The notes: generated from the sequence alone by a model not told the origin. 39,558 nucleotides of DNA from Folioceros fuciformis (GCA_049999805.1 JBNGIO010006455.1:1-39558); one strand, 5' to 3'; shown: positions 3,824 to 36,760, numbered from the stretch's first letter. Program-made: numbers and translations.

Positions 3824-5147
3824 TAAGCTTCACATGGACTGTTGTAGCTCTTCTACCTAGGTGCGTTTCCAACGAATTAGAGTGATTTTGAGGATCCGAC
3901 AATGGATCCTCTGGATCATATGGTGCGCTGTTTAGATCCAAAGACTCACAGAACCGAGCATCTTGTGCACGCAATTCCGCATCCAAAGTGCTATGCCTCC
4001 AACAATTACGTATGGTATGAGGACTCACAAATGAAGTCTAAGCTTTTACCAGCATAACCACTACTTGATATACATCGATAGTTGTAGCCGCATTGTCTAT
4101 GATCTAGTTGCATTGGTACGAAATCATCAACTTACGATACTGAGCCTTGAAAGAACAGATGATCCATTGGTCCAAAGGTTGATATACGCTTGTCACATTG
4201 GGTGGAAAGAAAACCACCTTTGTAACTTGCAATTGAGCTGCATTACTAAACCGATGCCCAAGACAATTATCCACTATAAGTAACACTCTAGTCCGCCCTA
4301 ATGCAACCATCCTCTGGTCAAAATCTAGCAAAAACTTCTCACATAGCTCTATTGTCATCCATGCCTTTTGGTTTACATACTAGATAATATTCAAATTCAC
4401 GGGATTTTGAACATTCCTGACAGAGAAAGCACGAGGCCTAAGATATCTGTTGATCACAAAAGGTGGCAACTTGCAAGATCCATCAACATTTGTTGTCAGT
4501 CCAATTGTCAATCAGTCCTTAAACTGCTTCCGTCTTGCAATACACATTGTTGCAAGTGTCTTGTTCGGCGGTGCTCTGAAGAAAAGACTAGTCTCATCCA
4601 TATTAAAACCATTTGCAGCTCCATAATCAAGACCTTGAAGTTGCAGCTCTCTAATAGCTACCTTCATTGCTTCTGTATTGTTAACACTCCCTGCCTTTCC
4701 ATGTCTGACAACTGATTTAAAATTATACCTTTTCTTCTAGTGAGCAACCCAACCTCTATGGTATGTCATTTTTGGTCTCTCATCTTTAGGAATCTTCTCG
4801 TGGAATTTGGAAGCCATCTCACAAAGCAAGTCATCTGAAATTATGGCACCTTGAGTTTGGATTGCAAGAGCCCAAACGTGTAGTGCGTGGTCAACGTGTG
4901 GGCATACGACTGGTCTATCCCTCATTTCTGCCATATTAGTTGTTAGACCAATGGCAAAGTCCAACCATTTGTCTTTGTTTTTCACAATCCTAGACAATCC
5001 ACTTTTAGAAGCTGCTATTGAAAACTTCTATGTTTTCCATCTAGTCAACTCCTGAAGTGTGCAAGACTATTGGACATAATATTCGCAAACCTCTTTCTTT
5101 TGTTGCTTTGTTAGGGTAGCAAGCTTGTGCAGCGGCTTGGGCGGCAT
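3824..5147 (-). pseudogene. degenerate pogo/Tigger-like (CENP-B HTH + DDE_1) transposase, interrupted at its 3' end by the copia
   Basis: ATG at 5147 (MPPKPLHKLATLTKQQKKEVCEYY...) with in-frame TAG stops; HTH segment VDHALHVWALAIQTQGAIISDDLLCEMASKF...RGW; DDE_1 motifs VLLIVDNCLGH, FFPPNVTSVYQPLDQ.II.SFKAQYR, VSPHTIRNCWRHS. Confidence 0.88.
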
Positions 5148-5600: not shown

Positions 5601-5754
5601 AGCACATTCAAAGGAGTAAGCACATTCAAAGGAGTAAGCACATTCAAGGGAGTAAGCACATTCATTCAAGGGAGTAANNNNNNNNNNGGAGTAAGCACAT
5701 TCAAGGGAGTAAGCACATTCATTCAAGGGAGTAAGCACATTCAAGGGAGTAAGC
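5601..5754. repeat. 18/22-bp minisatellite (AGCACATTCAA[A/G]GGAGTA) spanning an assembly gap
   Basis: At least 7 units, some with an extra TTCA; 10 Ns at 5678-5687. Confidence 0.92.
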
Positions 5755-5954: not shown

Positions 5955-8388
5955 CAACCGGCCGCACCTGGCCTTCCATCAACTTTGTAAAGAGCGCTCT
6001 AGGTACCTCGTCAAATCCGAAAATCTTCCCTCACAAGAGATAGATACTGGCCTTCTCTCGGCTTTAACTCACAAAGTGTGCTTCGTCCATCACAAACTTA
6101 GGCAACGGCACTGGAAAATATCTGGGCCATGCCAGCCAGGTGCTCATGTAACAAGGTGGTGCATTTTGGACCGGCTTGCTCCCTGGCATCGCCTTGCCTG
6201 CTTGACGCCCTACACATTGGTGGCCACAAGAACCAGTTGCTCGCCAGCACTCCCCGACTGGACGATCGCCAGGCAAGCCAGTGCAGCGATGCAAGTGGAG
6301 ATGGAGTCCCGGCACTCTTTGTGCCGCCCGATTGGCCGAACCTCTGACACACCAGTGGCCGCGACTGGCCCCGTCCACCCCAGAAGGAGCTAGCAAGCGC
6401 TATATTGAGATTCGCGACGGCGGACGCATGTCTGACACTTTTGTCACCTGGACACGAGCTCGGCGCAGGGATTGGATCCGCCTCATCTGTCGCACACTGC
6501 TCTCCGCAGATTGCAACGGCTCGCTCGTCGGCCTTCCACTATCACGTGACGTCACTCCTGCTAGGGTTCCGTCGCCATGTGTTCGCCAAGTCCGGCCTCC
6601 ATGGATGAATAACACAGTCTGATGCTCGCCGCACCACGCGGGCCAAGCCACGCTGTCTCTCGCACTGTGCGTGCTAGGGACACAGGATGGGCCCGAGTCG
6701 TGGAGCCTGGAGGTGTGGGAGAGGCGAATTTCTCACCCCCAGGCTGCCAGGCCCTAGGCCTAACTAAGCCCCAGCCACGCCTACACGTGACAACCATCAA
6801 CCGGGTGGCACATGCTTGTAATGCGTTGCATCGCACTCTGCACAGGCAGGCACCGTGTTGAATGTCGACGGCCATGTCCGCTGGCTGGACTGTGACGGAA
6901 GTTAATAGGTCATATTCTCTCCATGTCCGATGCCGCCCCTTTCTTTACTGTCGTTCGTGAATGGACCACCTACCGCATCCACACTTCCAGATGCGCAGGC
7001 CGGGCCAGCTGGGTGGCATGCCGATCGGGCCAAGGCAGCCACTGCCCAGACGACCACCACGCACCTGCCCCATCATGTGGACATACGGAGCGTTTCCTCC
7101 GATGCGCTCTCAAAGAAGGGTGTCAAGTGTCAAATCCGGGCTGCATCAACCGCGACAGTTTCTGGTTTTATCTTGCAATAGCAGCAATCGCCATCAGTGG
7201 GGAGTTGGAACCCGGGAGTGAGTGTCATCAACCTCACCTGGCCCCACAGTCGGCCCCAGGCATATTCGATCCAGGATGCCGATGCCCACAGCCCGCGGTG
7301 CACAGGACACTGACTTCGTCTACACCTCTTCCTGCAGGTATCACTGTGCCAGACAGACGTCACATCGGACCGAGCAGCAAATGAGACGAGGAGCAAACAC
7401 GGTGCACAAAGCTTGCATGTGCGCAAGAAGAGGCCATACATAACTGTGACACAGTAAGCTGATAACGGGAAGTGGGAGGGGGCTTGATTGCTCTGGCCGC
7501 GAGAGGCACTTGACTGGTCAGTTTATTCACACAGCCTGAAGGCTGAACTTTAGTACAAGCGCGTGCCGAGGGCGTATAGCTCCGGCATGCACTCCAATGG
7601 GCAGGCTTCGCAAATAATGCAAGGGGAAGAAAAGAATGAACTCGAGATTAAACACAAATAATCGGGGGAGAAGCACCTACTTCCAGGATGGCAATAGGAT
7701 CTATGCAAACGGTGTCATAGACATACCAGCGAACGCTATGGTATGATGTATCCAATTGTCGGCGCCAACAACAACACTTAAGCCGAAGAGAGGAGATATG
7801 CCTCGAGAAGACATGCTAAAGGAATGGGTGACGCACCCACATCCACCCGGCCTAAATCCTCTGCTTCGATGTGCTACTCACGTCTACGGCTGCGCCGGCC
7901 GACTGTGACTAGTCCAGCACCACAGACTCTGCTAGTCGGTGCGGGAGAGACGGAGAATCCACTGAATTGGCTTCCCATATACACTCAGTTTTACACAAAT
8001 CTGAAGGCTCCTCCGAATGATACCACTACACATCCCTCGAGAGCAAAAATAAAGAAATATTGCTGAGCGCAGGCTGAAAGACTACCCGAGCTCATTGAGT
8101 GCCAACTCCCTGTGCCAGGGACCAATGGTGTTCTTGCAAACTTGCTTGCTTATGAGCCATCCTTCCTGTCAACCAACCCAATTTGCCACCCAGTAGACAG
8201 GCATAAATCTGTACTCGGTTCTCATCCAGACTGGTGCATCTAGCTTTCACTCTCCTTGAGGAGATAATACCCAGCAGAAACTTGACGACCAAGCACCTTG
8301 AAATTGGCATCCTTAGATAAGATGCGCATACAAGATAGTACCCTTCCTCTTTGATCTCACGAGTCTGCTCACGGCAGCCTGAGATTTC

Positions 8389-11026
8389 TCAACTCACTTG
8401 TTCTCCAATCAGGTCAAGCCCCACAGCCAGGAAAGCTAGTCCTTGGAAAAGGAGGAAATAGAAGTGCACACCTTTAGCTGATAGTAAGCTCCTTGCTGAC
8501 GCAGTCAGCAGCAAAAATGATAAAGTGAGCTCCTTCCTGTACAGTCGGTTCGTCTTTTTCTTCAAAAAGGGCACTGGACTAGGTGCACCCTGCTGCTGTG
8601 ATTGCTTACCCATACCTTCCAGGTTCAATGCTGATGCCCCACGACGGTGGCCAGCCAACGATAACTCAGCATCCTCTTCTGTCTCCTTCTGGGCTATGGC
8701 CAGGAGGTCTGCCTCCGACGATCGTCCCATCTTCTTGGTGACAACCCACTCATAGGCACTACCGAGTTGGAAAAGTCCCGACACCATGGCATTGAACTTG
8801 GTAACAGACATGGTGTTCTCAAACAACAAGTAAGGAACGAGGAACGGAAAAGACTTCGGAGCAGGTAGAACATTCAGGAAGGACATCAGGGCAGGTATGT
8901 AGCACACCACCCACAGGGGAAGGTGAGCCTCAGGGACAAACATGGTCATGGGTAGAATGATGCAGAAAAGAGTGAACGAGTAGAAGGGAAGAATCAATTT
9001 CCTCAGGAGGAAGAAGAGGAAGATAAGATTGGCTTTCTTTGCAAGAGAAATCTGCGCCAATCACACGGAAACACAAAGAATCAGCAAACGTAACAGAACA
9101 ACCTAGTGACTGTGACACTATCAAAATAGAGCGCTGCTTTCCAATTCAAACTCCACCCACCTCTGATTTGATGATATCGGGCAGGCAGAGACGGAACAGC
9201 TGCATCGGACCAGAGTGCCATCGATGCTGCTGCTTTCTGTACGCCTCGTACGACTCTGGGAGTTCACAGATGCACTGCGCACAGAGGGACACAGGATCCA
9301 AAATAGTCAGGATCTACGAACCACAATTCACCTGCCAAAACGGCTTGACGAGGGTGATCACATGCAAGTGATGAGGGTGTTACCTTCACGTCATTCAGAA
9401 AAATAAACTTCCAACCCTTCAGGTGAGCTCGCACAGCGATATCCATGTCCTCCACAGTGGTCCTTTCCAGCCAACCGCCCGACTCTTCCAGAGCTTTGAT
9501 TCTCCAGACGCCTGCTGTTCCGTTGAAGCCGAAGAAGTTGAGAAATACCCCATTCACTTGCTGCTCCACTTCAAAATGGAATGACAAGTTGATATTCTGT
9601 AATCGTGTCAGCAAATTCTCGTCCCTGTTGATGAACGCCCACCGAGTCTGCACAAGGCCCAGCTCTGGATTGTCCTGCAGAAGACAAAAAAGTCAGAGAA
9701 TGCACAAGCTCAGTGTCTGGCCACTATCAGAACATCAAGGAGACAACCCTCCTCAGAAGCTGGTACTGAACATACAATGAAATGGGGAACAGTCCGCTTG
9801 AGGAAGTCAGGCTGAGGTTGGAAGTCAGCATCGAAAATGGCAACGTATTCATAAGCCTTGACGTAGTCGCACATCATTCCAGCTTTCAAGTTTCCAGCCT
9901 TGTAACCAGTTCGATTGCGCCGGTGCCTGTAAACAGCGTGCACGCCCTTGAGGGACCATTTCTGCACCTCCGCCTTGATGAGTTCTTGAGTGGACGGGTC
10001 ATCTGAATCGTCCAATACTTGGACAAGCATTTTAGACCTGGGCCACTCCATATTGCAGACTGCTGCCAGAGACTGCTGGTAGACCTGCGAAGTCAGGGAC
10101 ACAAGAAAACTGTCAGACCCACAGACGAAGCTACCACACCACATCCTTGTGAGCAGGACGCAGTTCATGGAGAGCACTGGGCTACCAAAGATCTGAAGGT
10201 CGTGCAGCACAAAACGACACAGCCGTGGTCCACAGGCAAGGAAGGACTAAACAGAAAAACCAAAGGCAGGGCCCCGAAGCAATCCATGGAAGCCTGTGCC
10301 TACCTCTCTCTCGTTGCACATTGGTATCTGAACAAGAACATGCGGGTAGGCGGCATCCGGATTCTCCACGTCATCCGGCGTGTCGAATGAAGCCACCTTA
10401 GGCACAGGAGCCACGCGCCTATACTTGATCCAGATACAGCCCAGGCAGAGCAGCAGCCTGTCCGCAGACTGGACGAGGAAAAGAATGATGCAAGCGTCCG
10501 CCAGGAGCTGCAGCGGAGGTGCTATGTAATTGGAGCGCAGAAAGATCCAGGACAGATAGATGACATGCGGCAGGCTCTGAACTTCCACCACCGTGGGCAT
10601 GTGAAGATGGGGCCGAGTGAAGTGCCAACCCTTGAAGTAAGCCAGTATCTCCACACCCAGCATGACGATAGAGAAGAACAAGAAAATCCTGATGCAGTGA
10701 TAGAGCCTTCCCTTGTGCGGCTTGTCCGACGGAGGCGGCACTCCTTCCTGAAAAATAAGGCGCTTCTTCACAGCAGCAAGCACGGTCCAGAGCCCCATAG
10801 CGAGCCAGGCGACGCAGCCCGCCGCCCGGTGGGCCTTGAGCATGAGCACCCAGGTGAGCTGCTTGGTATTCTTGTCCCGATTCTTGTCAGCCTCAAAGAC
10901 TCCAGCCTTGGGGCTCTGCAGCTCCAGCATGGACCAGTTAGGATTCTCCATCTTCACCACCACGGGCGTGCCTCTGTGCGCCTCCTTCGTCCCCAACCAC
11001 TCCCCTATATTAAAGCTAGGTGGCAT
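8389..11026 (-). CDS. CSLC: cellulose synthase-like C (GT2), xyloglucan beta-1,4-glucan backbone synthase, ~699 aa, 5 exons
   Basis: Exons 11026-10304, 10084-9776, 9674-9384, 9274-9161, 9051-8389; all introns GT-AG and phase 0. Motifs [70 protein letters not shown]. Confidence 0.96.
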
Positions 11027-12051
11027 TGTGACAGTTTCTCCTTATCAACCGCTCCCCCAAGCACAGTCGCAGAATCAGGGTGAGAGGAGGAGCTCCGCAA
11101 CCGAAACCGCTGCAGCCCGATCTCCTACGTGCATGCGGCAGCAGGCGCGGAGGGCGAGGCTGGCACGGCCAGGCGGCCCATCCCGAGCTTCCCGCACCGC
11201 ACCCAGGCCGTATCCGCGACAACAGGAAGTGGTGAGCAATCCGCGTCCGGGCTGGAGCATCCCCCGCCGTCCCGGATTGAACCCGAGGCCACGAAATGTG
11301 CACGCAATGCCGCCCCGGATCCGGCGAGCCCAGCAGGCGGTCAGCTTCCAGGAGCGGGGGCCCTCCTGGGCGCCATCGCCGCGGCAATGCCGGGAGCCTA
11401 AGGCGTCCCTCCGGAGGCGCACTCTCCAGGCAGGACCCGAGATGGGAGACGAGGGCAGCACAGGCACGGCAGAGGCGGAGTAAAGAAGGCTGGGTGCAGG
11501 GGAGGAGGCGGGCGGGAGGGACAGGGACTGCGAGGGACGGCGGGCGAGCAAGCAAGGAGGCAGAGCTTTCTGGCGCACCAACCGGGCCGGGCGTGGGAGA
11601 GACGAGGAGCAGGAGAGGAGGAGGAAGCAGGAGCGATGATGAGCGAAGAGGAGGGTGCAACAGCAGACAACAGCAACGGGCTACCAGTCGGCGTCCTGCC
11701 GAACGCAGCTCGCTGTGATGCCGGCCCCTTCCCACACCGCACCTCACCGCATCGCACTGCACTGCTCTGCTCGGCTCTGCTCGTCTCCACTGCTTCTGCA
11801 GCCGCGTTCAGCCTGGCTTCTCACTCCATAGCCCGCCAGCCTGCCACGCCCTGAAGACCCAGAGAGAGAGGAAATAGAGAGAGAGTGCAGAGAGCAGTGT
11901 GGGAACCTGGACCGGGCTGTGCCGGTCTCGGTGACAGCAAAGAAAGGAGAGCCGACGCCAGCTGGCTGCCCGACACTCTCCCATTGCTGCCCGGTTTGAA
12001 AGTTGGTTTGTCCCGTTGAGCTGTCTTTTACCGTGGTGCCGTGGCCATGGC

Positions 12052-12077
12052 CCATGGCCCATGGCCATGGGCCATGG
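12052..12077. repeat. perfect 26-bp palindrome within a CCATGG(C) array upstream of CSLC
   Basis: CCATGGCCCATGG|CCATGGGCCATGG. Confidence 0.85.
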
Positions 12078-14399
12078 ACCCTATTTCTCGTTATTATTCA
12101 GTCTGCGTCGCCCACCACCTGCCGTGCCTGCTCGGCTCCCTTCCCTCGAAGACAAGCGCGGAGTTTGCAAATTCGCATCTGGCCCCCCATAAGCAATCAT
12201 GGTTTTCGCTGCTTCAACTACCATTGCCATCGCAGCCAGATTCATTCAAAGCGCACACTCATTCGCAGTCACGTAATTTCCATTACACATATGTATGAAT
12301 GAAGACGCCCATAACAAACCACTTCTTCTTCTTCTTGTTCTTCTTCTGCTCCTTCCAAGCTCTTATGATGTCACGTCCAGCTGGTGATGATGCAAGGATG
12401 GCAAGGCAAGACAAGGCCATGTACATATTATCACCTTGCCCGGTGGAGAGCCAGGAATGGAGACGTATGTCGGTACACCCATTCAAGTTTACTGTGTGTG
12501 TGTGAAACACCTGGAATGTCCATGCTTTCACCTCGGTGCAAATTGCATGGTACTGGTTTCCATGACGGAACACCGTCACCGTCCTTGGTGGCCTTAACTA
12601 GATTTCTTTCTGTACCCCTTTCGGCATAGAGAAAGCAATACAAATTCATGAGAGAGTTGCACGATGTGGGGGGCCAGGGACCTTGGTTTTTTGCTCGGGT
12701 GGTGTGGACTGGACTCCGACTGGGAGCAGATAATTGGAGGGTGCCGGAGATGGTGGTGTTGCAGCACGGTGCAAGGGCTGGTGGTGGACCAGGTACCCAG
12801 CGACCCGGGAGCACCACGAGCAGGGAAGGGGAGGGAGAAGAAGAGGGAGCAGCCTTTACGAGCTCAAGAAACGCAACCTTGTTTCCTAGCAGTTTCTCTT
12901 GCAATCGCCCTTGTGGTCGTACAAGGCAGACAGAGCTGGCAAACTGGGTCCTGGATCTCACGGCCAACTCGGCTTTGTGGGCCGGTCCAGTTCAGTGGCA
13001 GATGCCTCCGAGCGCAACTGGCTCTTGAAACCGACACGTAGCCCGGCCCTGCCGTTGTGCATATGCAAGCCATGCATCGGGGTTGGAACTTGGGGCTCGG
13101 GCTCGGGCTCGGCTCCGTCGGGAGGGGACGACGGGCGCGGCCCCCGATTCCAAGCCGTCCCTAGGTGAGAATTCCAGTTCCGCGTTCCTTGCCGGCGGAA
13201 CAACCCAGGAGTCCATAATACCACGCAAAACCTGGAACCAACCCCGGCCCCGGTTTCCAGTCAACCTGCGCTGCTGCGACTTCTCTGCTCACCTTCACCC
13301 CCTGACTCCGCCCCTGGAAACGGCCCGGGAAGAAGCCGTGCTGACAAAGAGAACTGGAAAGCCAAAAAGAAAAGAAACAAACACAGCAGAAGAGGTCTCT
13401 CAGTGCGCCACCATTGATAAATCATAGACTCGTTCCTACCCAGCATTCATCTCCAGTACACGACGCCATTATCGGGATGTCAACTTGCGAGTCTCTCCCT
13501 CTTAAGGATACGTTTCCCGCCCGCTCAAGTGTGGGATTAGCACAGCATCCGCTATGTGGTGTGGCGGTGTTTGCGTTACGACACGAGACGAGGCCGAGAC
13601 GTTTCTGGCTTTCCCGCTCAGGCAATTAATGAGCAAGTAAGGAGCGGTGCAGCGTTAATCAGGCGGGGGGATCTGGTGGACTGGATCCCGGAATCTGGTC
13701 ATGCGAGACGCTTGGCGAGGGGCATGGCAGACTCGTTATTTGAGGCCACAGCCTTTGTGTATTGCATGTGCTTGCGCAGGCAGGCAGGCAGGGAAGGCAG
13801 TCGCGCACGCAGGCGGCCGGTTCTCTCCCTCCTGCTTCTTCCTTCCTCTGCTTCACCCTTCTGCTCGGCTGCCTCTCCCCTCTCCACCGACAGCACGGCA
13901 CGTGTGGCAATCGCACATTGCCTCCTGTAGGACCGCCTTTACCTTAACTTGGGGCTGACCGTTAAAGCCCACAACGGCCCGAAGCCCACGGTGGGGCCGC
14001 GCACGCCCCGCCCCTCCCTTCCCCGCCCCGTTCGCAGTTTCCCGTTCTCCCAGTATGCGACCTTGACGTACCAGTACGTATGCGGGCCTATACCTAAACC
14101 ATGCATACACCCTGCCGTACGTATTCTACGCCACCGTGGCCGTACAAGTCACACCTTGATGCCATCACGCCCTGCCCTGCCCTGCCCTGCCCTGACCTGC
14201 ATACAGAACGTACTACCCGGCGTGGGCTCGCCCCACGCCTTCCCTGGATTGTGCCTTTTCCGTTTTTCTTTCATGTTAAAACATCACTTACTTATCCTAA
14301 ACAGATTTATAAATGTAGTTTTAATTATTTGATACATGAATCATTAGTCTTACAATCTTGGTGAACTAGATTAGCATCAATCAATAAAGACTTGTCCCA

Positions 14400-15560
14400 C
14401 TCCTTTCACACAAAACAACATGATACAAGGAAGGACTTCGAGAGATGTTGCGTGTACTTGAATTTACCCACACAAGTTCGCTAATTGTACTACTCTTGAT
14501 GCGATCACACGGAGTCACATTAATTTCTGTTTCCCCTCTCAATTTAAGGGTTGTGTTGCTCTTGCTACAAGTCGTGCTCTTTGATTCGGGTATGATGGTG
14601 TGACATCAATGCTTTACTTACCTCTCACTCCTCTTACTTCGAGACTTGTATTGGGCTCTTTCTTGTTTCACTGGCTTTACCATCTTTAAGACCATTGGTT
14701 CCGTGCAGCTTTTAATCCATAGTGTGAATGTCATTTTTTCTGTGTCCTTACCTTCCCTCATGTTTCAGTACAGTACACGTGCAACAACGAACTACAATCA
14801 AGTAGTGTTTGAACATTCTTTGACATTGTCTTTGTTTGTAGTGAGTGGTTGCGAGTACACGAGAAGACTTTCAAATTGGAAGACCTTAGGTTATGATCAA
14901 GTAAGAATTTATTGAATGGTTTCTCCGAGAAGGAATCTTCGTTAAATGGCGTCACTCTTGAGTGTATGTATGTGCTAGTATGTCACTTTCTCCATCTATG
15001 ACAGCCTCTAGCAATGTGTGATAGAGTGGCTCCATTTCTTTGTCAACTTGGATTACAGCATTACTTTTCCGAGGTCAAAATGAGGATTCTTCATGGTATG
15101 ATTTGGAAGTGAAGGAGTTAGCACCTTTGATCATTCATATAATATCTTGGGTGAGAGTGTCTGTCAAGTTTATGAGTTTCTTATGATTGATACACTTCAT
15201 AGTTCCATCCCTCACTAAGTACTTAAAAACATAATACTTTTCATCTTGGACTAGCCAACCATTCAAGCAAAGATGCAAGATTTCATGATGTGTGCAAAGA
15301 AGAGCTGTAAATTGGGAGCTGAGAGACATGTCCTTCAAGATCAGAAGGTCATGTAAAGGAGTATAAACCTGGTTTAAGGAAACCATGAGTTTAATCATGG
15401 AATTTGAGCTACTTCTCAGAAGCTTTCACGAAATTTTGAAAATACTCATAGATACTAACAGAGTAGGTATGTATACACAGTCTGTACTAAAAACCTCTGA
15501 AATGGTTAACTTGGTTCTTTGATTCCCAGTTTCCTTCTATGATCCATTCCCTTTCTCAAT
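14400..15560. other. AT-rich island, probably a highly degraded transposon remnant
   Basis: Sharp drop in GC relative to the flanks; short stop-interrupted minus-strand frames with no recognisable motif. Confidence 0.3.
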
Positions 15561-15858
15561 CAACTCACCAGAAATGGACTAGGTACAGCAAATGTGGATG
15601 GGATGCATGACCCCATGCCAGGAGAGAGACGTCGACCGTCCGCCGGCTAGCAGCGGTAATCCGCACCGACAGCCGTGAGAGACGTTGAAGGGCGCTGTAG
15701 GGTCGTGGGGCCGGGCCGGCCAGGCACCGTAGGTGTGTGGTTTGAGCTAACCTGACGTGAGGTTGTGCGGGCCGACTTCGTGAGCCTCGTCTCGAGTGCA
15801 TCTAGGAGCAAGGATGATGATGGGAAGGAACCCGGACTCGGCGGGGTCTGGGCCCGGG

Positions 15859-15913
15859 GGCCCTGGCCCTGGCCCTGGCCCTGGCCCTGGCCCGGGGCGG
15901 GGGCGGGGGCGGG
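15859..15913. repeat. (GGCCCT)n hexamer run followed by (GGGGC)n, a potential G-quadruplex
   Basis: Directly visible. Confidence 0.75.
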
Positions 15914-17423
15914 TAACAAAACAGCACATGCTCTAGAATTGTCCAGTCCGCAAACTGCAAGCACAATTTGAGGCAAAAGGGTACGAAAGTCTGGCTCGAG
16001 TCTTAAGACGAGACTTCACCTCGTGGAGGGGAGCGCTGAATCACTAGACTACACATGTTGTTCTCTTTCAATGACGCATTGTTTCATCATAAATACTAAG
16101 CACGGGCCCGATTACGGCACAGGCGCAATCTGGCGTGGGTGCCACAGTCTCTGTTACCTTGCAAGAGGTGCACCGTCCGCAAGTCAGAGAAAGAAGGGCT
16201 GAGAGGAGAGTAGAGGAGAGCAGAGCAGGAACTCCGCATACGCATCCACAGCTGGGTCGCTTTGGAACTGTGGAATGATGGCCTGCTCCTTGCTGGGTGT
16301 GTCAGGATTCGACTTCTGCCTTTGGCTGGCTGGCCTCACATGTTTCTGGGCGATGCCACTTTCTCCCACCTGTGACTTCAGCAGCTTACACAAGGTGGCC
16401 TGGCCCTGGTCTGGTCTGCTCTGGTCTGGTATGGTGACCAGCAGGCGAGGTGAAAGAGTCCAGTAGAGGTAGATCGGAGTCACCGGACCCGGAGACGTAT
16501 GGTAGTTGCATGAGCAACAGACAAGGAATGCCATGTGGAGAAAAAGTAAAGCAAACAGCATGTGACAGCGCCCTAGATACCTGAGGCGTCACTGCATGGG
16601 AGGCCGCGAACACAAGTCCATGGACATTGATCGGGGCGTCCACTGCCACTGTCCACGCCCTCTCATTTACATAACGAAACACACACTCAAACAGCAGAAG
16701 GTGCGATTGTTGCCCAGAAAAGCGCGCGTCTCCAGTACTTTGTAGCGTGCCCCACAGCGTCCAACCGGAGACTGGAACGTAACGTAGCTTCCACCAATTT
16801 TGGTGACACTTTACTTTTGCAAAGGCTGTCACTGGAGTCATAGTGTAATCACTCGCACAGCACAAGTACAAGTGACAGCAAGGGATGCGTCGTTTAAAAC
16901 ACCCAAGTACAGAACGCCCACACATTTATTTTACCCGGTAAGCAAATAATAAGTTCATCCGGACCTTTGCACATCTACAGGCCCACACATGATACCGAAA
17001 ACGAAAAGAGGCTTTCGGAGCGGTTGGGTCTTCCATAGTGACTTGCTACCTAAGTCGTAAGGATCTAGGTACACGTTGGGCTTCTGACCTGGTTTAGTGG
17101 TCCTTAGTGACGCGATGCCGGCAGAACAGCTGGAATCTGCCGACTGCCAAAGAAAAGCTAAAAATAAGAACAAAGTGCTGGTCGACAGCACTGAGACAGC
17201 CTTCACATCGGCGATCAGCAAATAAGTTAGCAGCTGCTCAAAGAGACAACATGGAGCTTGCAATCTCATCCTCGAACTCCTACTCGGCCTATCCTACATG
17301 GTTAGCAATTGACATAAATTATCCAAGTCCAGACTGGCGTAGGGCATGTACAGAGGGAGCGGAGCTCTTCCTTGCCGCAGCTGAATTGCCTCTGGTGCAC
17401 CCGACAAGGAGCCCTGAAATAAA

Positions 17424-18722
17424 TTAACGATGAGAAGCGACGTCACGGTCTAGAGGATTCGATGACTCGTTTCTGATCCGCTTCACTTTGTGGGAGCCCA
17501 GGCTGCGGTGTTGGAAACCCAATGCCTCCAACACCTGGTTGTCAGCGAAGTTGAAAGCACGCTCCATATGCTTCAAGCACCGCTCAATCGGGTAGTCTCC
17601 GTACTTCCCACACGGCTTGCAGCCAACAAAGTGCGTGACAAACGGCCATCTATGATCACCAAAACCTGGATGACTATCCGCCATCATCTCTTCGTACCTT
17701 TCCACCAGGATCTCCCAGTAACCATGCAGGTAGTAGGAGTTCTCTAAATAAACCTTGGGCGACCACTTCTCTTTCTGCGTGATCAATAAATAAATGAGAG
17801 CCGACTGGTCATCCGCCTCGAACTGAGGACGACCATCCAAAAACTTGCTCAGAACCTTTCCGGCCTCATCGCGTATAGCACCCTTGGGCCCCATGGGAGC
17901 CCAGGCGTCTAGCATATCCAAAGACCACTGGCAGTTCCGAAGTAGGAAGCTACCAGTATTCAGTCCTATCCAGCTCTTTGTCTTGTATACGAGGTCATCC
18001 CACCCGTGCAACACGAAGTTGTAGTCCGTGTAATTGTCCACCGGCAGATTGAACACCATGTCTGTGAAGAGGGCATCGCTGTCCATCCACCATATCCACT
18101 CGACCTCCGGATGTGTCAACATCAGCTTCCGCAATAGGGGCAGCTTAGACCAGTATCCGGCCATCTTGTGATCCAAGAAAGCCATGTTGTAGACGATTTC
18201 CATGTCGTGCAGGCGGCAGTAGTCGATCTTGTTCTTCAACGCCTTGAGAAGATAGTGATCGCCAATGGAATTTTCACACGGCTGGGGAGACGATCCAGAA
18301 ACCAACAAGACCCGCGGCTGCCCCTTCTTATTGAACGTCATACCCGGATTCTTCTCCAGCCAAGACTGGCGTTGCTCATTCCAATCAGATATCTGCGGGC
18401 CCAGGCTGTAAGGCAGCCCCGAACTGGCCGCCTCCTCCGCCTGCTCCTCCCAGTCCGTAGGATCCGAGAGGTCGATCTTGACCTCAGTCAGAGTGCGTAC
18501 CGGTTCCCGCACCAGAGCAACATCCTGTGCAGCAAATCCCGCCTCCTGAGTCTGATGGCTCTGGCTCAGCATCAGCGGCCCCCGTAGCACCATCACGGTC
18601 ATAAAACCCGCGAACAAAGTCAGGCACAGATTCTTGAACCCCTTCACAATACCCCTCCCCCGCGGACTGCGCATAAATCTGTTCACGCTCCATCCTCCTC
18701 GAGATGCCCTTAGCAGCGCCAT
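17424..18722 (-). CDS. XXT: xyloglucan 6-xylosyltransferase (GT34, XXT1/XXT2 type), single coding exon, ~432 aa
   Basis: First ATG at 18722 (the track's 18782 start is GTG); N-terminal TM LCLTLFAGFMTVMVLRG; motifs GDHYLLKALKNKIDYCRLH, WWMDSDALFTDM, LNTGSFLLRNCQWSLD, FEADDQSA, WPFVTHFVGCKPC, AFNFADNQ. Confidence 0.95.
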   Translation of the reverse strand: MALLRASRGGWSVNRFMRSPRGRGIVKGFKNLCLTLFAGFMTVMVLRGPLMLSQSHQTQEAGFAAQDVALVREPVRTLTEVKIDLSDPTDWEEQAEEAASSGLPYSLGPQISDWNEQRQSWLEKNPGMTFNKKGQPRVLLVSGSSPQPCENSIGDHYLLKALKNKIDYCRLHDMEIVYNMAFLDHKMAGYWSKLPLLRKLMLTHPEVEWIWWMDSDALFTDMVFNLPVDNYTDYNFVLHGWDDLVYKTKSWIGLNTGSFLLRNCQWSLDMLDAWAPMGPKGAIRDEAGKVLSKFLDGRPQFEADDQSALIYLLITQKEKWSPKVYLENSYYLHGYWEILVERYEEMMADSHPGFGDHRWPFVTHFVGCKPCGKYGDYPIERCLKHMERAFNFADNQVLEALGFQHRSLGSHKVKRIRNESSNPLDRDVASHR

Positions 18723-19366
18723 TCCGAGAGCGAGAAGAGCTCCGTCCGATGCCCTACCCCACCGAACGAGCCCGGAGTCCACAGATCAGCCAACGAACAG
18801 CTCAACTCAAGCACCGGAACCACACCACAGCCCGTCCCAGCCTCAAAACACATTAGCAAACTCCCCCGCAAGCCTACTGCCACAACCATCCGCAGGCATC
18901 CTCCGAAGACTTACGACAGCCATCGATCTTGCTCACCAGATGCTCAGGACCGCCCCCCGCCTGCAGCCTCAAGTCCCCCGTTCCCGCCGCCCTTGCACCG
19001 ACGGCAAGAGCGACAGCATTGCTACAAAGCAATGCCCCCGCGCCCGCAGATGAACCAAGGCCTCCAACCGGAGCCGGCCCAGCGATAGGCGTGAGCCCGA
19101 CCTCAGCAATTGCGATCCCGGACGATCCACCAACCGGCCTCACCCGCCGCCTGCCGTTGGGGAAGAGAGCGCCTCCGCGCGGCTGAGCGAGGAAGAGCTG
19201 GAGCCGTTGTGGCGGTGATAGGTTGCTGTCCTAGAGCTACCGCTGCAGTGTCGCCCTCGCTCGCCTTCGCCTTCTCGGTCGCCCTCTTGCTCTTGCTGGC
19301 TAGCTTTCACTCGATCTCGGACTCTGGAGCACAGCAGGCGGCGAGAATGGCTGGAGGAGAGAGAGG

Positions 19367-19404
19367 CGTGGCGCGGGAGAGGGGGGAGAGAGAGTAGAGA
19401 GAGA
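19367..19404. promoter_or_regulatory. GA/CT-rich tract near the likely XXT transcription start
   Basis: GAGAGAGAGG...GGGAGAGGGGGAGAGAGAGTAGAGAGAGA; CT-rich on the XXT sense strand, typical of plant 5' ends. A similar tract lies at 11861-11895 upstream of CSLC. Confidence 0.4.
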
Positions 19405-21009
19405 CACAACGTACTGTGTGTGTGAAGCTGATTCAAGTGTGTGCGTCGACTGCTTGTACATACATACAGTGTATGTACATTTGTACAGTACTGTGTGTTG
19501 TGGGAGGCGGGTTTCCGGTCTTTCGCATTCCTGTCATGAGCCCGCGACAGAGACCTCTCACACAACTGCTGTGCCGGGATTTTGCACAAGCGGGCAACTT
19601 GAGTGAATTCGAACTTCCCTATACATACGTGGCCCTCGTGATCGATCGCGACACAGAGACTCGATTCAAATATGCTTGCTTTGGCGCTCCGTCTGTCCTC
19701 TGCCCACTGCACTCCCAACACACGTCTCACTGAAATTGGCTTGGAATTTGCATCTAGCTGGAGTCATGACACGTATATTGTGGGTCTGGTGCGGAGAATG
19801 ATTTTTCAGGACTTCTGTGAGGCCAAATCATGGTGTTGTGTACCATGCCTTTCATCAGCCTCAACTGCATTACCCGAAGTGGAATTTAGGCAAAATTATT
19901 GCCAACTAATGCAACTGCCTTCTGGATATCTGTTGCTTGACGGCCACCGCATGAATGTGTAACGAACAGAAGAGTGACACGGGATCGGGACACGGAATCT
20001 TAAACTTCATATGAGATTGGGGCCCTGGGAGTTCAGACTAGTTGGACGGACTACTGGACGAGTTTACTACTTCTGGAGGAAGTTCAGGCTTCTCAACAAA
20101 CTGTGCAAAAGTATGAGAGAGTGTGACTTCATGTTCCGTGCATGGGCTGCACTTGGAGGATTCCCGATGCTTCGCTAGCGAAGAAGACGAGTGAGTGAAG
20201 CACATTCAGGAAGTGGTCGGTCTGCGACTGAAAGAGGATGCAGTCAGCTTGGCAGTACTTTCCCACTGAGAGCAACATGGACAGTAGAAGGGTTCAGTCC
20301 TGCAAGACATAGCATCATCCACGTACAGGGAGGCAGTAGTATATCTCCTGTGATCGATAGGAGCATACAATCCAGTTCCTGGTGCTCCCACCTGTTGCTC
20401 TGGAGCATCCTCTCGGTCACGAACGTTAACCCCGGGTGACGTGCAATTTCGTTCACCACCGTCTCACCTTCTCCGTCTCCTGTTAGCATCGTCCGATGTC
20501 AGAAAGATGTATTTCCGGGAAGGATCCATACCTTCCCTGGGGCTCACGACCTCAAGGTGCTATTCACTCTCATGAAGCCCGTTCCGTGAGCCAACGACTC
20601 TCACAACCCTGTTCCTCAGCTCTGGGGTTTTCGGGCCCTTCCTGGATCAAGCTCTCTTCCTGCATGGGATGTATGACACAGTCTTTCCTCTCTACGGGAT
20701 CATGATCTGCATCAAACGGGAAAAACACCACGACATATTATCAACAACTGCAGGACGCCCAACCCGATCGACAATCGTAGCACGCGCACAAGTGCTGGTT
20801 ATTCAGTACATACATGCGGGCATCAGAACCATGTAAAAGCATAGGCCGGCCTTACAACACGGAGGCACAACGGGTCCAGGCCCAGGAACGCTTAACTGCC
20901 GAGCCTTGACGGTTGGTTGCAGCAAAGGATGCATGTCCTCAACGGCGCTCTCGTCTCTCCTGGAGAGCGTGAAAAATGCACATCCCGTTCGTGACGCATG
21001 TAGGAAGCG

Positions 21010-24000
21010 ATGGGAGACTACGGCGAGGAATCCCGTGGACATTCCCGGGCCGGGTCTCGGGTGGTGACGACAGCGTGGAAGCCAGGGAGGCCTTTGCCTG
21101 CTTCTCGGCATTCCAGTGTCAACGACTGGCCTGCAGAGCGGGCGTCTGGATCGAGGGCCTGGCTGCCCGGCCTGGTGCCTCCAGGAGAACAGGGGGGTTC
21201 TCTGTCTGGCTCCCAGTACAGCATTCCTACGGTAGCAGGGTCCCAGGCCACCGATGACAGCAGCGTGGCGGTGCAGGAGGAGTCTCCTCCCCAAAGCTCG
21301 CAGGTTTTGGGTGATGTCGACCCTGAATGGGCTCCTCGTGCACCGCTGTTTCCTCGCCTGTCCATCAGTGGGGCGCCCTTGAAGCTCATTGATGCGATCT
21401 GGACAGGGGCCCAGGCGGAGGTTATGTCCTTTCTGCACCACCCATTTCTCGGGGCTGTTCTCACGCACAACGTCCCAACCGAGCTTCTGACGCAGTATCT
21501 GAATGAAGAGGCCTTCCTCTTCTCTGCAGCAACTATGTTGTGAGGCCGCTGACCTACTTTCTTTGTTGTGCTGCTTTCATTCAAGAGGTGTCGTAAAGAT
21601 GTCTGACATGAGCGTGCTGTTGCAACACATAGATCTCAACACCCGCTAGTGAGTGCTGCTTTGCTCAACGTGCCAAATTTTATCAACACCTTGAGAGTTG
21701 TGCTTTATGACTTGGTAATGCTCACCTCTTAAGGCAACAAGGCTCAGAGGGTGGTCGCATTTTCGCTTGCCGGATGCCGCATTTTCTCATGCTGGCCAGA
21801 GTTTGTAGACGAAGTTATGGCTGCAGCTCAGGGTTTGTGCATGTCTCAGACTCAAGACGGCTGGAATGGTATATTTGCCACTCTTGATGGATTTCAATCA
21901 CGTGACTTCAACAGCACAGTGGCGCAGCAGAAGCAATGTGGTCCTTCTTGCAACAAAAGTCGTCTTCCAATTACAACGTGGACGCCCTGGTTGCTTGGGT
22001 AGCCATTCTGCGCGTGAGGAGCCTTGTTGAAGCTGTCATTGGCAGGAGGATCCCCACGCAAGGAATAGGAAAGAGTCCATTTGTTGTGTGGATTAGCACT
22101 TATGGTGAAGAAGCGTTTCAGGTCAGTGTATGATCCAGTGTGTGGTGCTTCTGGCTTTGTACTCGTCGACACTCCTGTCATTCTTGGCTGAATGTGGACC
22201 AGCAAGTACAGGTCTGTGCTACGCTACTGGAGGAAGCCCTGGAATCTTGTTACCCACAAAGCCCTGACCAAGGAGAAATGCAACGTCTGCTGGATATCTT
22301 CAGGACAACTATCAGGCTTGACATCGAAATATTTTCAAACTTGTACTCTAGTGTTCCCAACTACACGGAGTATAAAATTGAACAGAATAGTCCGTGGAAC
22401 CCTTGTAATCTCCTCTTTGCCACCGACTATGATTGCACTTGTACAGTGAAGGATTCTTGTTACCTTCTAGTATGGGCCTCAGAGGCTGCAGGGCGAATCA
22501 ATGACGGCCGGCTGGTTCAGGCTCACCAGGCCATTTGCACGGATCATGATGTAAGTGTGCTGGACTGTCTGGCATCCATGCCCGATTTCAATTTTGACCC
22601 GGGCCCTGAGCAATTTATATCGGAGATAAGGTTTGAGCTGTTGCCCGGAATGGACCCTAGTCTTGAATCAATGGCCAGAGCGATTCTCGACCAGGATTAC
22701 ATGGATACAGAGGATATTCCTGCCATGCAACCTGTTGCCGGGTTTGCAGCCATCCGAGAGGCGCTCCTGTGGCTAGCACAGCTTGAAACTGACACAAATA
22801 AGGTAAGGCCAGCAAGATCCCAATTTGGAGCGTTGTTCAGGCCTCAAGTACATCATCTGACCCACAGTCTACAAAAACTGTGGGTTAGGTGACGTCTCGA
22901 ACTGAGCAAGATGACTAATGCATGTCTCATGTTACACAAGGTTGACAAAGCTGGTCGTCTTCTTTCTTTTGCAGAAAGTCATGGACCGTGGACTGTTGGT
23001 GGGCCTTACCAGACAGGCTATCAAGGCAGCGGGGAAGAAGGCTGCTATGCAGAACAACTGCCTCCAAGTACTCAAACGATTAACAAAATCTGGGTGCTCC
23101 ATCCATGTCATCTCCGCGAACTGGTCAAGGGATTTGATTCTGAGCGGACTTTCCTTTATCCCCGGTAGGAAGCTGCATCAAGGCGGCTTTACCCTCTTTC
23201 GTCGTGTCTCGTGTCGCTGTAATGCGGGGGTGGGCAACGAGACCTAATGTATGCTATATCGTGTCATGCAGAAGGCATGCTTTATGTTCACTCCAATGAT
23301 TTGGAGTACGAGGCATCTGGAACATCTAACGGGAAGTTCTCGAGTAGCGTTACAAACGCTTTTGATAAGGAGCACGTCTTGGAAGTGCTTCGAAGGATTG
23401 TGAATCAATTTGCTGGGGTTGAACAGCCTTCCTCGCATTTTCTCCCTGACGATCAGGGAAGGATGGTTGTATACCTGGGAGATGCTCAAACTGACCTGCT
23501 GGCCCTACTTGATGCGGACCTTGGCATAGTTATTGGCAAAAATCCTGCTCTGAGACACATGTTGAGTAAATACAGGATTCGGTTATTGCCACTCGTGGAG
23601 GCTTCAGCGCATATTTCAGTTTCAAGACTGTACAGTTCTCATCGCAGCTACAGGCAATCAGGAATCCTATTTGAAGCAAGTGGTTGGGAGGATGTTGAAG
23701 CCTGTCTCTTTGGGGATTGCACATTACAGGCCACTGACGATTTCAAGGCCTTCTGCTGTCCACCGGGGCAACGAGGTGTTCTTCACAGAGAGAGAACAGG
23801 GCAGCAAAACATGCTGTCCCAGTTCCGAAATTCTGTCTTGCAGACAAACGTTTTTGGATCTGACATTTCATCTCCAGCCCTTCAGCGCATGCCAAAGTAC
23901 CGCAACTCTCAGGAATTTACATATGGGGATCAGCCTTTTGGTCAGGAGCCTCGAAGATTTTCGTCTGATGAAGGGCTGCATATGACAGGGCAAGGCGGGA

Positions 24001-34677: not shown

Positions 34678-35171
34678 GAGTGCACTCAAGCAAGCTGAGA
34701 AACGGAGCCCTACATACAGCCCAAGGAATGCATGAGCCGACTACTACTCGTCTTGAGACCTCCTAAATGAGGCAATCTTAAACAGAACAGGGAGGAGATC
34801 TACCTGTGTATCAACGTGTTAAACTATGTCTTATCTCGCTGAGAAATGTCGATCGCCTCCCTGATCCGCGATCAAAGAGCGTCTTTGAACGATAGCCACA
34901 ACAACAACGAGTCCAGTAGGGTGGGAGAATCACCATGGATTCTTACTTATTTACTTATTTTACTTATTTAAGTGTTTGATCATTAACTTGCGGGATCAGG
35001 TGAATATTTAATAGCAAAAATATTTTACTGAAAACCAAATATCACATAAATACGAGAAAAGACCTGTGGATATGCTATCGGACAGTACAATTCAACATTT
35101 TTCGTCGCTGTCGGATAACTAGTGTTCTTAAACCCTGATTCTGCCGGAGAAACAGAATCGAATCCCATGCC
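34678..35171. promoter_or_regulatory. probable bidirectional promoter (494 bp between start codons)
   Basis: Divergent ATGs at 34677 (-) and 35172 (+); AT-rich core with TTACTTAT repeats at ~34943-34970. Confidence 0.55.
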
Positions 35172-36160: not shown

Positions 36161-36760
36161 CCTGTCCAGGGTTTGCTCTTCTTCGCAGTGGGGTCATCCA
36201 CATTCACTTCTCCAGATCTCACAGCATAGCGAAGTATGTTTTGCTGCCCAGAGTTCATGGAGATGGGTTTTCTTTTGTCCATAGGAAGTGGGCTGAAAGA
36301 GAGCTCTCCATCCCTTGATGCGCGGAAGCTCGTTGCTTCCATTGTCTTCTCAAGGCCCTTCTGAATCACGCGGAAGGGCTTTTCCTCCCGCTAACAGTAC
36401 TGTACAGCAATGTCCTCAGGACGTTTTGTCAAGCACGCTAGAATCCAAAATTGTGCCCACAGATTGCTGTCCAATTCCAGGGTTGTTGACCGTCAGAGGT
36501 GGCAGGCGTTCCCGCAGAGACGCCGACGAGGAATGCGTCCAACGAAAACAAACCCGCATACGTTTTAAGGCCGGGGCAGGCATCCAGCCAGACTAGCCCG
36601 GCAAAGGGTAAACCAAGTAAAGCGCAACCCTACTCCTCCATAGTGGTGTTGAGAAGTGTGAAGCCAAACCTGGGCCTTTCGACGGCCAGGTACTGTGCAC
36701 ATCTGGATAGTTGTGCGGAGTGAGGAAGCGGAATAGAAAGTGTGTGCTGCAGCCAGCAGC

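What the first reader, a model, noticed from the sequence alone, without database searches (positions are those of the whole stretch)
8389..18722. Candidate xyloglucan biosynthetic gene pair: CSLC backbone synthase next to XXT xylosyltransferase
Seen: full-length CSLC and XXT1/2-type genes lie on the same strand 6.4 kb apart, with no recognisable conserved gene between them. Established: CSLC makes the beta-1,4-glucan backbone, XXTs add the alpha-1,6-xylose, and the two form Golgi complexes; as I recall, the Arabidopsis genes are unlinked. Inference: two unrelated enzyme families (GT2 and GT34) catalysing consecutive steps and sitting side by side could be a cell-wall polysaccharide gene cluster, an arrangement known mainly from specialised metabolism. 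It may be ancestral or co-regulated.
Basis: partly seen in the sequence, partly recalled or inferred. Interest (0 to 1): 0.78.

Follow-up and report, generated by a model that had tools for sequence, protein, structure and literature searches.

The report
Neighbouring xyloglucan CSLC and XXT genes
Two intact, expressed genes for consecutive steps of xyloglucan (cell-wall hemicellulose) synthesis really do sit next to each other in this land-plant genome, but the pairing is absent from every other plant lineage that could be checked, so it looks like an ordinary neighbourhood and not a conserved gene cluster.

Summary
A 5-exon CSLC gene (699 aa; CDS 11026-8389, minus strand) and an XXT/GT34 gene with an intron-free CDS (432 aa; 18722-17424, minus strand) lie head-to-tail, 6,397 bp apart. 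No Pfam-recognisable gene lies between them. Spliced contigs of one public run reproduce all four CSLC introns and show a 5'UTR intron in XXT, as two separate sets of contigs.

The cluster interpretation is not supported:
- The 39.5-kb window holds no third xyloglucan gene (GT47, GT37 or GH16).
- No CSLA/C gene adjoins a GT34 gene in six genomes with positional gene IDs.
- None is adjacent among the locus tags of 12 further species.
- None of 68 metagenome-borne plant XXT loci, 25 distinct genes, has a CSLC in its flanks.

The label "XXT1/2-type" is not supported. The protein is equidistant from XXT1, XXT2 and XXT5 and branches at the unresolved base of the XXT clade.

Close relatives (probably hornworts), copy number in this genome and co-expression could not be tested. 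A lineage-specific co-regulated pair therefore stays open at about 0.15-0.2.

The parts
7488..11768 (-). CSLC transcription unit as covered by spliced contigs of run X3 (about 0.9 kb 3'UTR and about 0.74 kb 5'UTR)
   Evidence: table 8, records 17 and 18. The joints 9051/9161, 9274/9384, 9673/9775 (cut +1) and 10082/10302 (cut +2) are present in X3 only, not in the DNA runs X1 and X2.
8389..11026 (-). CSLC coding region: exons 11026-10304, 10084-9776, 9674-9384, 9274-9161, 9051-8389 (stop included); 699 aa; GT2 beta-1,4-glucan synthase of the CSLC clade
   Evidence: spliced model, GT-AG introns of 219, 101, 109 and 109 nt; PF00535, PF13632; best hits are CSLC / 'xyloglucan glycosyltransferase' proteins at 64-65% over exon 1; tree.
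11769..16907 (.). Interval between the two transcription units. No recognisable gene. GC-rich, with short microsatellites (GCCCT)n at 14169-14200 and (GGCCCT)n at 15859-15893.
   Evidence: (0 of 49 ORFs hit Pfam).
17424..18722 (-). XXT coding region: single exon, 432 aa, GT34 xyloglucan alpha-1,6-xylosyltransferase. It has an N-terminal hydrophobic anchor; the DSD motif and the HFVGCKPCG stretch are conserved.
   Evidence: (alignment to the XXT5 chain 9p3j_B).
16908..19177 (-). XXT transcription unit in X3 contigs: about 0.5 kb 3'UTR and a 5'UTR interrupted by a 183-nt intron (about 18753-18935)
   Evidence: record 19 (16908-18752) and the joint 18752/18936 with 242 letters beyond it.

Best explanation
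The region holds two ordinary, intact and separately transcribed genes of the core xyloglucan pathway. [quoted passage not shown] The XXT protein is a type II Golgi GT34 enzyme that adds alpha-1,6-xylose to that backbone. Function is inferred from orthology and conserved catalytic motifs. Each gene has its own 5'UTR and so presumably its own promoter. They lie in tandem (XXT upstream), with about 5.1 kb separating the XXT and CSLC contigs of run X3. The adjacency is most likely a neutral, lineage-specific accident of gene order, in a region with transposon remnants nearby. It is not a selected biosynthetic gene cluster, and it is not an ancestral arrangement.
For: Identity and integrity: Pfam GT34 E 1e-61 and GT2 hits. 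The CSLC model has canonical splice sites, all confirmed by spliced contigs. DDSDD, FDADF, TVEDMD and QQHRW are present in the translated model (the motif names are recalled). The XXT aligns over residues 69-425 with the solved XXT5 chain, with the DSD and HFVGCKPCG stretches identical. Separate transcripts: the X3 CSLC contigs end at 11768 and the XXT contig starts at 16908; no listed piece joins them.

Only two genes: 208 of 224 ORFs of 70 aa or more in the window were scanned against Pfam; the 16 left out overlap the CSLC or XXT exons in other frames. None gave GT47, GT37 or GH16.

No conservation elsewhere:
- Marchantia has one CSLC (Mp8g17530), and its XXTs lie on chromosomes 2, 3 and 4 (PMC12398305 text).
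- Table S6 of that paper gives the CSLA/C and GT34 orthogroups. In 0 of 6 genomes with positional IDs (Arabidopsis, Brachypodium, Marchantia, Physcomitrium, Mesotaenium, Chara) is any pair adjacent. The nearest pairs are Pp6c21_9120 / Pp6c21_8630 and AT2G24630 / AT2G22900.
- No adjacency appears among the locus tags listed for 12 further species: Diphasiastrum, Ceratopteris, Adiantum, Amborella, Sphagnum, Ceratodon, M. paleacea, Riccia fluitans, Tetracentron, Juglans, Cryptomeria and Hibiscus.
- 0 of 68 metagenome-borne plant XXT loci contain a CSLC by tblastn. These are 25 distinct genes at 97% nt identity; 12 of them have 7 kb or more of downstream flank. Their affinities are angiosperm, conifer, Sphagnum and other bryophyte.

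Transposon remnants lie nearby: copia pol at 1-2865 and DDE_1/Tc5 at 4107-5027. A second 'functionally related' neighbour pair in the same window (a TyrRS core next to an EMAPII-like tRNA-binding gene) shows that such pairs are not rare here.
Against: For this particular pair, chance adjacency is a priori improbable. The expected number is about 2cx/N, roughly 1e-3 for 1-3 CSLC, 3-8 XXT and about 25,000 genes; these numbers are assumed, not measured. The two products are known to act in one Golgi complex in Arabidopsis (review PMC11820401), so balanced co-expression would be advantageous. Both genes have the same orientation, nothing recognisable lies between them, and both appear as spliced transcripts in the same run. 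Close relatives, the only lineage where conservation would count, were not testable. The negative synteny evidence rests on partial lists (the best 120 hits per search).
Confidence: 0.7

Rival explanations
1. A lineage-specific co-regulated pair. In this lineage (probably hornworts) the CSLC and one early-branching XXT are kept together in one chromatin domain, so that the two core subunits of the xyloglucan synthase complex are expressed in step. This would be a minimal two-gene module for a primary cell-wall polymer.
For: Tandem orientation with an empty 5-6 kb spacer. Both genes are present as spliced transcripts in the same run. CSLC4 and the XXTs interact physically in Arabidopsis (PMC11820401). 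The pair-specific chance expectation is low (an inference with assumed copy numbers).
Against: There is no evidence of shared regulation. The two genes appear as separate sets of contigs, and there is no shared sequence motif of 16 nt or more between the two upstream regions. No third pathway gene is present. The linkage is absent in every other lineage checked. A single RNA run cannot show correlation.
Confidence: 0.18
2. An ancestral xyloglucan gene cluster of land plants or streptophytes that is retained here and was broken up everywhere else.
For: Both proteins branch deep: the XXT in the basal polytomy of the XXT clade, and the CSLC on its own branch outside the setaphyte, lycophyte and seed-plant groups. 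In Ceratopteris an XXT-like gene and a CSLC lie only 37 locus-tag steps apart on chromosome 3 (KP509_03G043200 / KP509_03G046900).
Against: It requires independent loss of linkage in liverworts, mosses, lycophytes, ferns, seed plants, Zygnematophyceae and Chara. 0 of 25 distinct XXT genes on metagenome contigs has a CSLC within up to 10 kb of flank. The Ceratopteris proximity is not adjacency and is within chance for multi-copy families (inference).
Confidence: 0.04
3. An assembly artefact: the two genes are joined by a mis-assembly inside the spacer and are not truly neighbours.
For: Contigs of all three runs that could be laid (X1, X2, X3) break at about 13996-14005 with loose ends. None of the 22 listed pieces bridges that point; 38 pieces were not shown. 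A 10-N scaffold gap exists elsewhere in the window, at 5678-5687.
Against: The break coincides with GC-rich low-complexity sequence, which splits short-word contigs anyway. Both DNA runs have depth in all 30 bins across the spacer, at a level like the flanks. The N gap lies outside the pair. X1 and X2 may be the source sample, so they are not independent.
Confidence: 0.05

Closest known systems
Arabidopsis xyloglucan synthase complex (CSLC4 with XXT2, XXT5 and others)
   Same: The same two enzyme families catalyse the same consecutive steps: the GT2 CSLC makes the backbone and the GT34 XXT adds xylose. The catalytic motifs are conserved here. Physical interaction is documented for Arabidopsis (passages of PMC11820401).
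   Different: In Arabidopsis the genes are dispersed; the AGI codes show no adjacent pair. Here one CSLC and one XXT are neighbours. Binding of the two proteins of this window was not tested.
Marchantia polymorpha CSLC (Mp8g17530) and its XXT genes
   Same: A bryophyte-grade repertoire. The window's CSLC is 74% identical (512 of 692) to the Marchantia protein.
   Different: The Marchantia XXTs named in the paper lie on chromosomes 2, 3 and 4. The only GT34 gene on chromosome 8 (Mp8g11830) is about 570 tag steps from the CSLC. The Marchantia XXTs are said to be nearer XXT1/2; the placement of the window's XXT is unresolved.
Plant biosynthetic gene clusters of specialised metabolism (for example the avenacin and thalianol clusters; recalled, not read here)
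   Same: Non-homologous genes for consecutive steps sit side by side.
   Different: Those clusters have three or more genes, are tightly co-expressed and make lineage-specific metabolites. Here there are two genes, a universal primary cell-wall polymer, and no demonstrated co-regulation.
Tandem arrays of cell-wall genes (PMC10762515: 44 of 150 families form tandem arrays in 60% or more of 169 angiosperms)
   Same: Cell-wall genes that are physically clustered.
   Different: Those arrays are duplicates of one family. That study did not look for cross-family neighbours (passages read). Here the two families are unrelated.

Membership tests
[quoted passage not shown] | GT2 catalytic domain | tested here: met
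   PF00535 E 7.6e-08 and PF13632 E 1.1e-08 on exons 2 and 3.
[quoted passage not shown] | Processive GT2 signature D, DxD, TED, QxxRW (motif list recalled) | tested here: met
   DDSDD, FDADF, TVEDMD and QQHRW were read in the spliced translation.
[quoted passage not shown] | Groups with CSLC and not with CSLA or other Csl families | tested here: met
   Exon 1 (259 aa), searched against longer proteins, gave hits whose informative source names are CSLC / 'xyloglucan glycosyltransferase'; none listed is named CSLA. In the tree the protein sits within the CSLC sequences. No CSLA outgroup was included.
[quoted passage not shown] | [quoted passage not shown] | not testable with these tools
   Needs heterologous expression or a mutant.
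XXT (GT34 xyloglucan alpha-1,6-xylosyltransferases) | GT34 domain | tested here: met
   PF05637 E 1.1e-61, covering profile positions 2-237 of 238.
XXT (GT34 xyloglucan alpha-1,6-xylosyltransferases) | Close similarity to structurally solved XXTs, including the DxD metal site | tested here: met
   E 4.5e-172 to XXT5, 6.5e-172 to XXT2 and 2.3e-170 to XXT1. WWMDSDALFTD and THFVGCKPCG are identical in the printed alignment.
XXT (GT34 xyloglucan alpha-1,6-xylosyltransferases) | Type II membrane topology (short N-terminal tail and one anchor) | tested here: inconclusive
   A hydrophobic stretch, LCLTLFAGFMTVMVL, lies at about residues 32-46. This was judged by eye; no topology predictor was run.
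   The protein lies outside the seed-plant XXT1/2 clade (SH-aLRT 97) and outside the group holding XXT3/4/5. It sits in an open polytomy on a long branch of 0.93 (quick search, no bootstrap). A sister relation to either clade is not excluded.
Plant biosynthetic gene cluster (operational definition recalled: three or more non-homologous pathway genes, physically close and co-regulated) | Three or more pathway genes in the neighbourhood | tested here: not met
   Only CSLC and XXT are present. There is no GT47, GT37, GH16 or other wall-related family among the 208 of 224 ORFs scanned.
Plant biosynthetic gene cluster (operational definition recalled: three or more non-homologous pathway genes, physically close and co-regulated) | Co-expression of the members | tested here: inconclusive
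   Both genes are seen as spliced contigs in one run. Contig depth cannot rank genes, and one run cannot give a correlation.
Plant biosynthetic gene cluster (operational definition recalled: three or more non-homologous pathway genes, physically close and co-regulated) | Linkage retained in related genomes | tested here: not met
   The linkage is absent in 6 genomes with positional IDs, in 12 further species' listed locus tags and in 25 distinct XXT genes on metagenome contigs. Close relatives of this organism could not be tested.

The most novel reading that the evidence does not exclude
In this lineage (probably hornworts, whose xyloglucan is reported to resemble that of vascular plants) the CSLC backbone synthase and an early-branching XXT are held together as a tandem pair under shared chromatin or enhancer control. 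This would fix the stoichiometry of the two core subunits of the xyloglucan synthase complex. It would be the first selected linkage of non-homologous genes for a primary cell-wall polysaccharide in a plant.
Probability: 0.15. Interest if true: 0.6.

Novelty: new member of a known kind. Interest (0 to 1): 0.3.

Why it matters
If the pairing proved to be conserved and co-regulated within its lineage, it would extend metabolic gene clustering from specialised metabolites to a universal wall polymer. It would also offer a compact two-gene module for studying or transplanting xyloglucan backbone synthesis. As it stands, the locus supplies a transcript-verified CSLC and a deep-branching XXT from a lineage with no close relative in the searched protein collections (best identities 65% for the XXT and 75% for the CSLC). 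These sequences are useful for rooting the XXT1/2 versus XXT3/4/5 split. The neighbourhood itself is probably ordinary.

Tried and rejected
- Whole-genome search for copy number and other xyloglucan genes: no genome is held for this window.
- Earlier findings of this scan: four look-ups returned nothing.
- Sequencing runs: no RNA holder is listed on record. Run X3 is labelled RNA only as a guess. I treat it as RNA because its contigs skip all four predicted CSLC introns and one XXT 5'UTR intron, which the DNA runs do not.
- X3 gives no cover at 12340-13003 and 14332-16323, and no listed contig joins the two genes. 38 pieces were not shown.
- Contig depths were not used to compare expression. 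Run X6 laid nothing.
- Short X3 pieces with loose ends at 13776 and 14000 were considered as a possible small transcript. They lie on GC-rich low-complexity sequence and were not pursued.
- A shared promoter motif: repeat search over 11027-20500 found only low-complexity families and one 19-nt pair (16752 / 19055), none linking the two upstream regions.
- Tandem repeats, Rfam and tRNA scans of the spacer or window gave only short microsatellites, 0 families and 0 tRNAs.
- The representative-library search (collected after a too-early try) collapses XXT subclades at 50% identity and did not help classification. Ten representatives were named.
- The Atlas look-up of the neighbouring 925-aa ORF gave no family (best score 0.86).
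- Literature: seven full-text searches found no paper reporting CSLC-XXT linkage in any plant. J Exp Bot erac157, on hornwort walls, is not held.
- Table S1M of PMC9915684 has XXT counts for some species, including Marchantia, Physcomitrella and Arabidopsis, but its species columns include no hornwort.
Full report
**What is there.** The window is eukaryotic nuclear DNA of a land plant, and no whole genome is held for it. On the minus strand, tblastn with a Marchantia CSLC (P0123) gave five collinear blocks. A splice search gave a 5-exon model: 11026-10304, 10084-9776, 9674-9384, 9274-9161 and 9051-8389. All four introns are GT-AG, of 219, 101, 109 and 109 nt. The model encodes 699 aa, with 512 residues identical to the 692-aa Marchantia protein. 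Its translation carries DDSDD, FDADF, TVEDMD and QQHRW, the D / DxD / TED / QxxRW signature of processive GT2 synthases (the motif list is recalled). Pfam sees GT2 domains on exons 2 and 3. Exon 1 alone, searched against longer proteins, gave hits whose informative source names are CSLC / 'xyloglucan glycosyltransferase', at 64-65% identity for the best (Ginkgo, Marchantia, Calypogeia, Diphasiastrum).

Also on the minus strand, one open frame from ATG 18722 to stop 17424 encodes a 432-aa protein. It has a full-length GT34 domain (PF05637, E 1.1e-61). Its best hits, at about 65% identity, are Selaginella, Diphasiastrum and angiosperm xyloglucan 6-xylosyltransferases. Against solved structures it matches XXT5, XXT2 and XXT1 at E about 1e-170 to 1e-172, and the WWMDSDALFTD and THFVGCKPCG stretches are identical to XXT5. 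The CDSs are 6,397 bp apart.

**Transcripts.** One public run (X3) is labelled RNA only as a guess. Its contigs skip exactly the four predicted CSLC introns and a 183-nt intron in the XXT 5'UTR. The two DNA runs, X1 and X2, show none of these joints. The CSLC contigs cover 7488-11768. The XXT contig covers 16908-18752 and continues for 242 letters beyond the intron. Both genes are therefore spliced, expressed units with long UTRs, and they appear as separate sets of contigs. What X3 does not cover is recorded under 'tried and rejected', as the tool requires.

**The interval and the flanks.**
- None of the 49 stop-to-stop ORFs of 70 aa or more between the two CDSs hits Pfam.
- Rfam and tRNA scans of the window are empty.
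- The spacer holds only short GC-rich microsatellites.
- Across the window, 208 of 224 ORFs of 70 aa or more were scanned. The 16 omitted overlap the CSLC or XXT exons in other frames.
- Besides the two glycosyltransferases, the hits are: a copia-type pol (1-2865); DDE_1/Tc5 transposase remnants (4107-5027); a tyrosyl-tRNA synthetase core (33216-34304, minus); a tRNA_bind/EMAPII-like gene (35139-35990, plus); MIF (36737-37105); a zf-RVT fragment (38795-39031); and a weak SUZ12 zinc-finger match.
- There is no GT47 (MUR3/XLT2), GT37 (FUT1) or GH16 (XTH) in the window. The 'cluster' is two genes.

**Which XXT, and which organism.** The three solved XXT chains score alike: 576.1, 575.6 and 570.5 bits. 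I built a 55-row GT34 tree holding seed-plant sequences named XXT1/2, sequences named XXT3/5, lycophyte, fern, bryophyte and two algal sequences. It used a quick search with SH-aLRT support only. In it the window's protein falls in an open polytomy at the base of the core XXT clade (support 84). It lies outside the seed-plant XXT1/2 clade (97) and outside the group that holds XXT3/4/5, on a long branch of 0.93. 'XXT1/2-type' is thus not supported, and the subclade is unresolved.

In a 34-row tree the CSLC sits on its own branch, outside the liverwort+moss clade (98), the lycophytes and the seed plants. Its best identity is 75%, to a Ginkgo protein. No protein closer than about 65% (XXT) was found in the collections searched. 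A land-plant lineage distinct from all those represented fits a hornwort; this is an inference, not a result.

**Is the linkage conserved?** Everything that could be examined says no.
1. Marchantia has a single CSLC, Mp8g17530. The XXTs named in the paper lie on chromosomes 2, 3 and 4 (PMC12398305, passages read).
2. Table S6 of that paper lists the CSLA/C orthogroup and the GT34 orthogroup. In the six genomes whose identifiers run along the chromosomes or scaffolds, no member of one group adjoins a member of the other. These are Arabidopsis, Brachypodium, Marchantia, Physcomitrium v6, Mesotaenium and Chara; positional order is assumed for the last two. The nearest pairs are Pp6c21_9120 / Pp6c21_8630 (49 tag steps) and AT2G24630 / AT2G22900. 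Selaginella and Closterium identifiers are not positional and were not scored.
3. Locus tags or contig lengths given with the hits allow a partial check, since only the best 120 hits per search are listed. The 12 further species are Diphasiastrum, Ceratopteris, Adiantum capillus-veneris, Amborella, Sphagnum fallax, Ceratodon, Marchantia paleacea, Riccia fluitans, Tetracentron, Juglans regia, Cryptomeria and Hibiscus sabdariffa. None shows adjacency. The closest case is Ceratopteris KP509_03G043200 / KP509_03G046900, 37 tag steps apart.
4. A scan of metagenome contigs with the XXT protein returned 68 plant loci with up to 10 kb of flank. They collapse to 25 distinct genes at 97% nt identity or more, 12 of them with 7 kb or more of downstream flank. 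Their affinities are to angiosperm, conifer, Sphagnum and other bryophyte XXTs. tblastn with four CSLC proteins found no CSLC in any of the 68 loci.

An ancestral cluster would therefore need many independent break-ups.

**Chance.** With c CSLC and x XXT copies among N genes, the expected number of adjacent CSLC-XXT pairs is about 2cx/N. That is of the order of 1e-3 for 1-3, 3-8 and about 25,000; these numbers are assumed, because this genome could not be counted. The specific pair is thus a priori unlikely. The same 39.5-kb window holds a second pair of that kind: a TyrRS catalytic core, and divergently transcribed from it, an EMAPII-like tRNA-binding gene whose best solved match is the C-terminal domain of human TyrRS.

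**A caveat on contiguity.** Contigs of X1, X2 and X3 all break at about 13996-14005 with loose ends, and none of the 22 listed pieces bridges that point; 38 pieces were not shown. The place is GC-rich low-complexity sequence. Both DNA runs have depth in all 30 bins across the spacer. I read the breaks as a short-word assembly effect, but the adjacency ultimately rests on the window's own assembly.

**Mechanism.**
- Shown: both genes are intact, spliced and transcribed, and both have conserved catalytic motifs.
- Inferred: the two products of this locus do the same.
- Not shown: any shared regulation.

**Literature.** Seven full-text searches found no report of CSLC-XXT linkage. The one large synteny study of wall genes examined tandem arrays of homologues only (PMC10762515, passages read).

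**Verdict.** The genes are new members of known families from an under-sampled lineage. The cluster reading is unsupported, and its 'ancestral' version is effectively refuted. A lineage-specific co-regulated pair remains possible at about 0.15-0.2 and is cheaply testable once relatives' genomes and expression series are at hand.

Noticed in passing
window 33216-34304 (-) and 35139-35990 (+): A tyrosyl-tRNA synthetase catalytic core (Pfam tRNA-synt_1b; best PDB hits are TyrRS, E 2e-37) lies head-to-head with a tRNA_bind/EMAPII-like gene. That gene's best solved match is the C-terminal domain of human TyrRS (1ntg, E 5e-27). In human TyrRS the two parts form one polypeptide. Here they are divergent neighbours about 0.8 kb apart. 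This is a second 'functionally related' pair in the window.
   Followed up: partly
window 22118-26000 (+): A spliced plus-strand gene (GT..AG joints 22118/22200 and 22800/22973 in run X3) contains a 925-aa open frame (23223-26000). It has no Pfam family, and its best Atlas feature score is only 0.86. It is an unknown, possibly lineage-specific, large protein.
   Followed up: partly
window 1-2865 (+), 4107-5027 (-), 38795-39031 (-), 5678-5687: Transposon remnants flank the locus: a Ty1/copia pol (RVT_2, rve, SH3_retrovirus) running off the window start, DDE_1 plus Tc5 HTH fragments, and a zf-RVT fragment. A 10-N scaffold gap sits 1.8 kb beyond the 3' end of the CSLC transcript.
   Followed up: no
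window 13996-14005: Contigs of all three runs that could be laid end here with loose ends. The sequence is GC-rich low complexity (runs of CCCCGCCCC-type words, and (GCCCT)n at 14169-14200).
   Followed up: partly
window 36737-37105 (+): An open frame with a full-length MIF (macrophage migration inhibitory factor / tautomerase) domain, E 1e-26.
   Followed up: no
proteins P0001, P0003, P0241, P0476: Liverwort GT34 proteins of 725-858 aa (Calypogeia, Riccia). The unnamed representative P0241 (858 aa) has three matched stretches. They may be tandem XXT genes fused in the annotation, or genuinely doubled enzymes.
   Followed up: no
Ceratopteris richardii KP509_03G043200 and KP509_03G046900: An XXT-like gene and a CSLC lie 37 locus-tag steps apart on the same chromosome. 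This is the nearest CSLC-GT34 pair seen outside the window. It is not adjacency.
   Followed up: no
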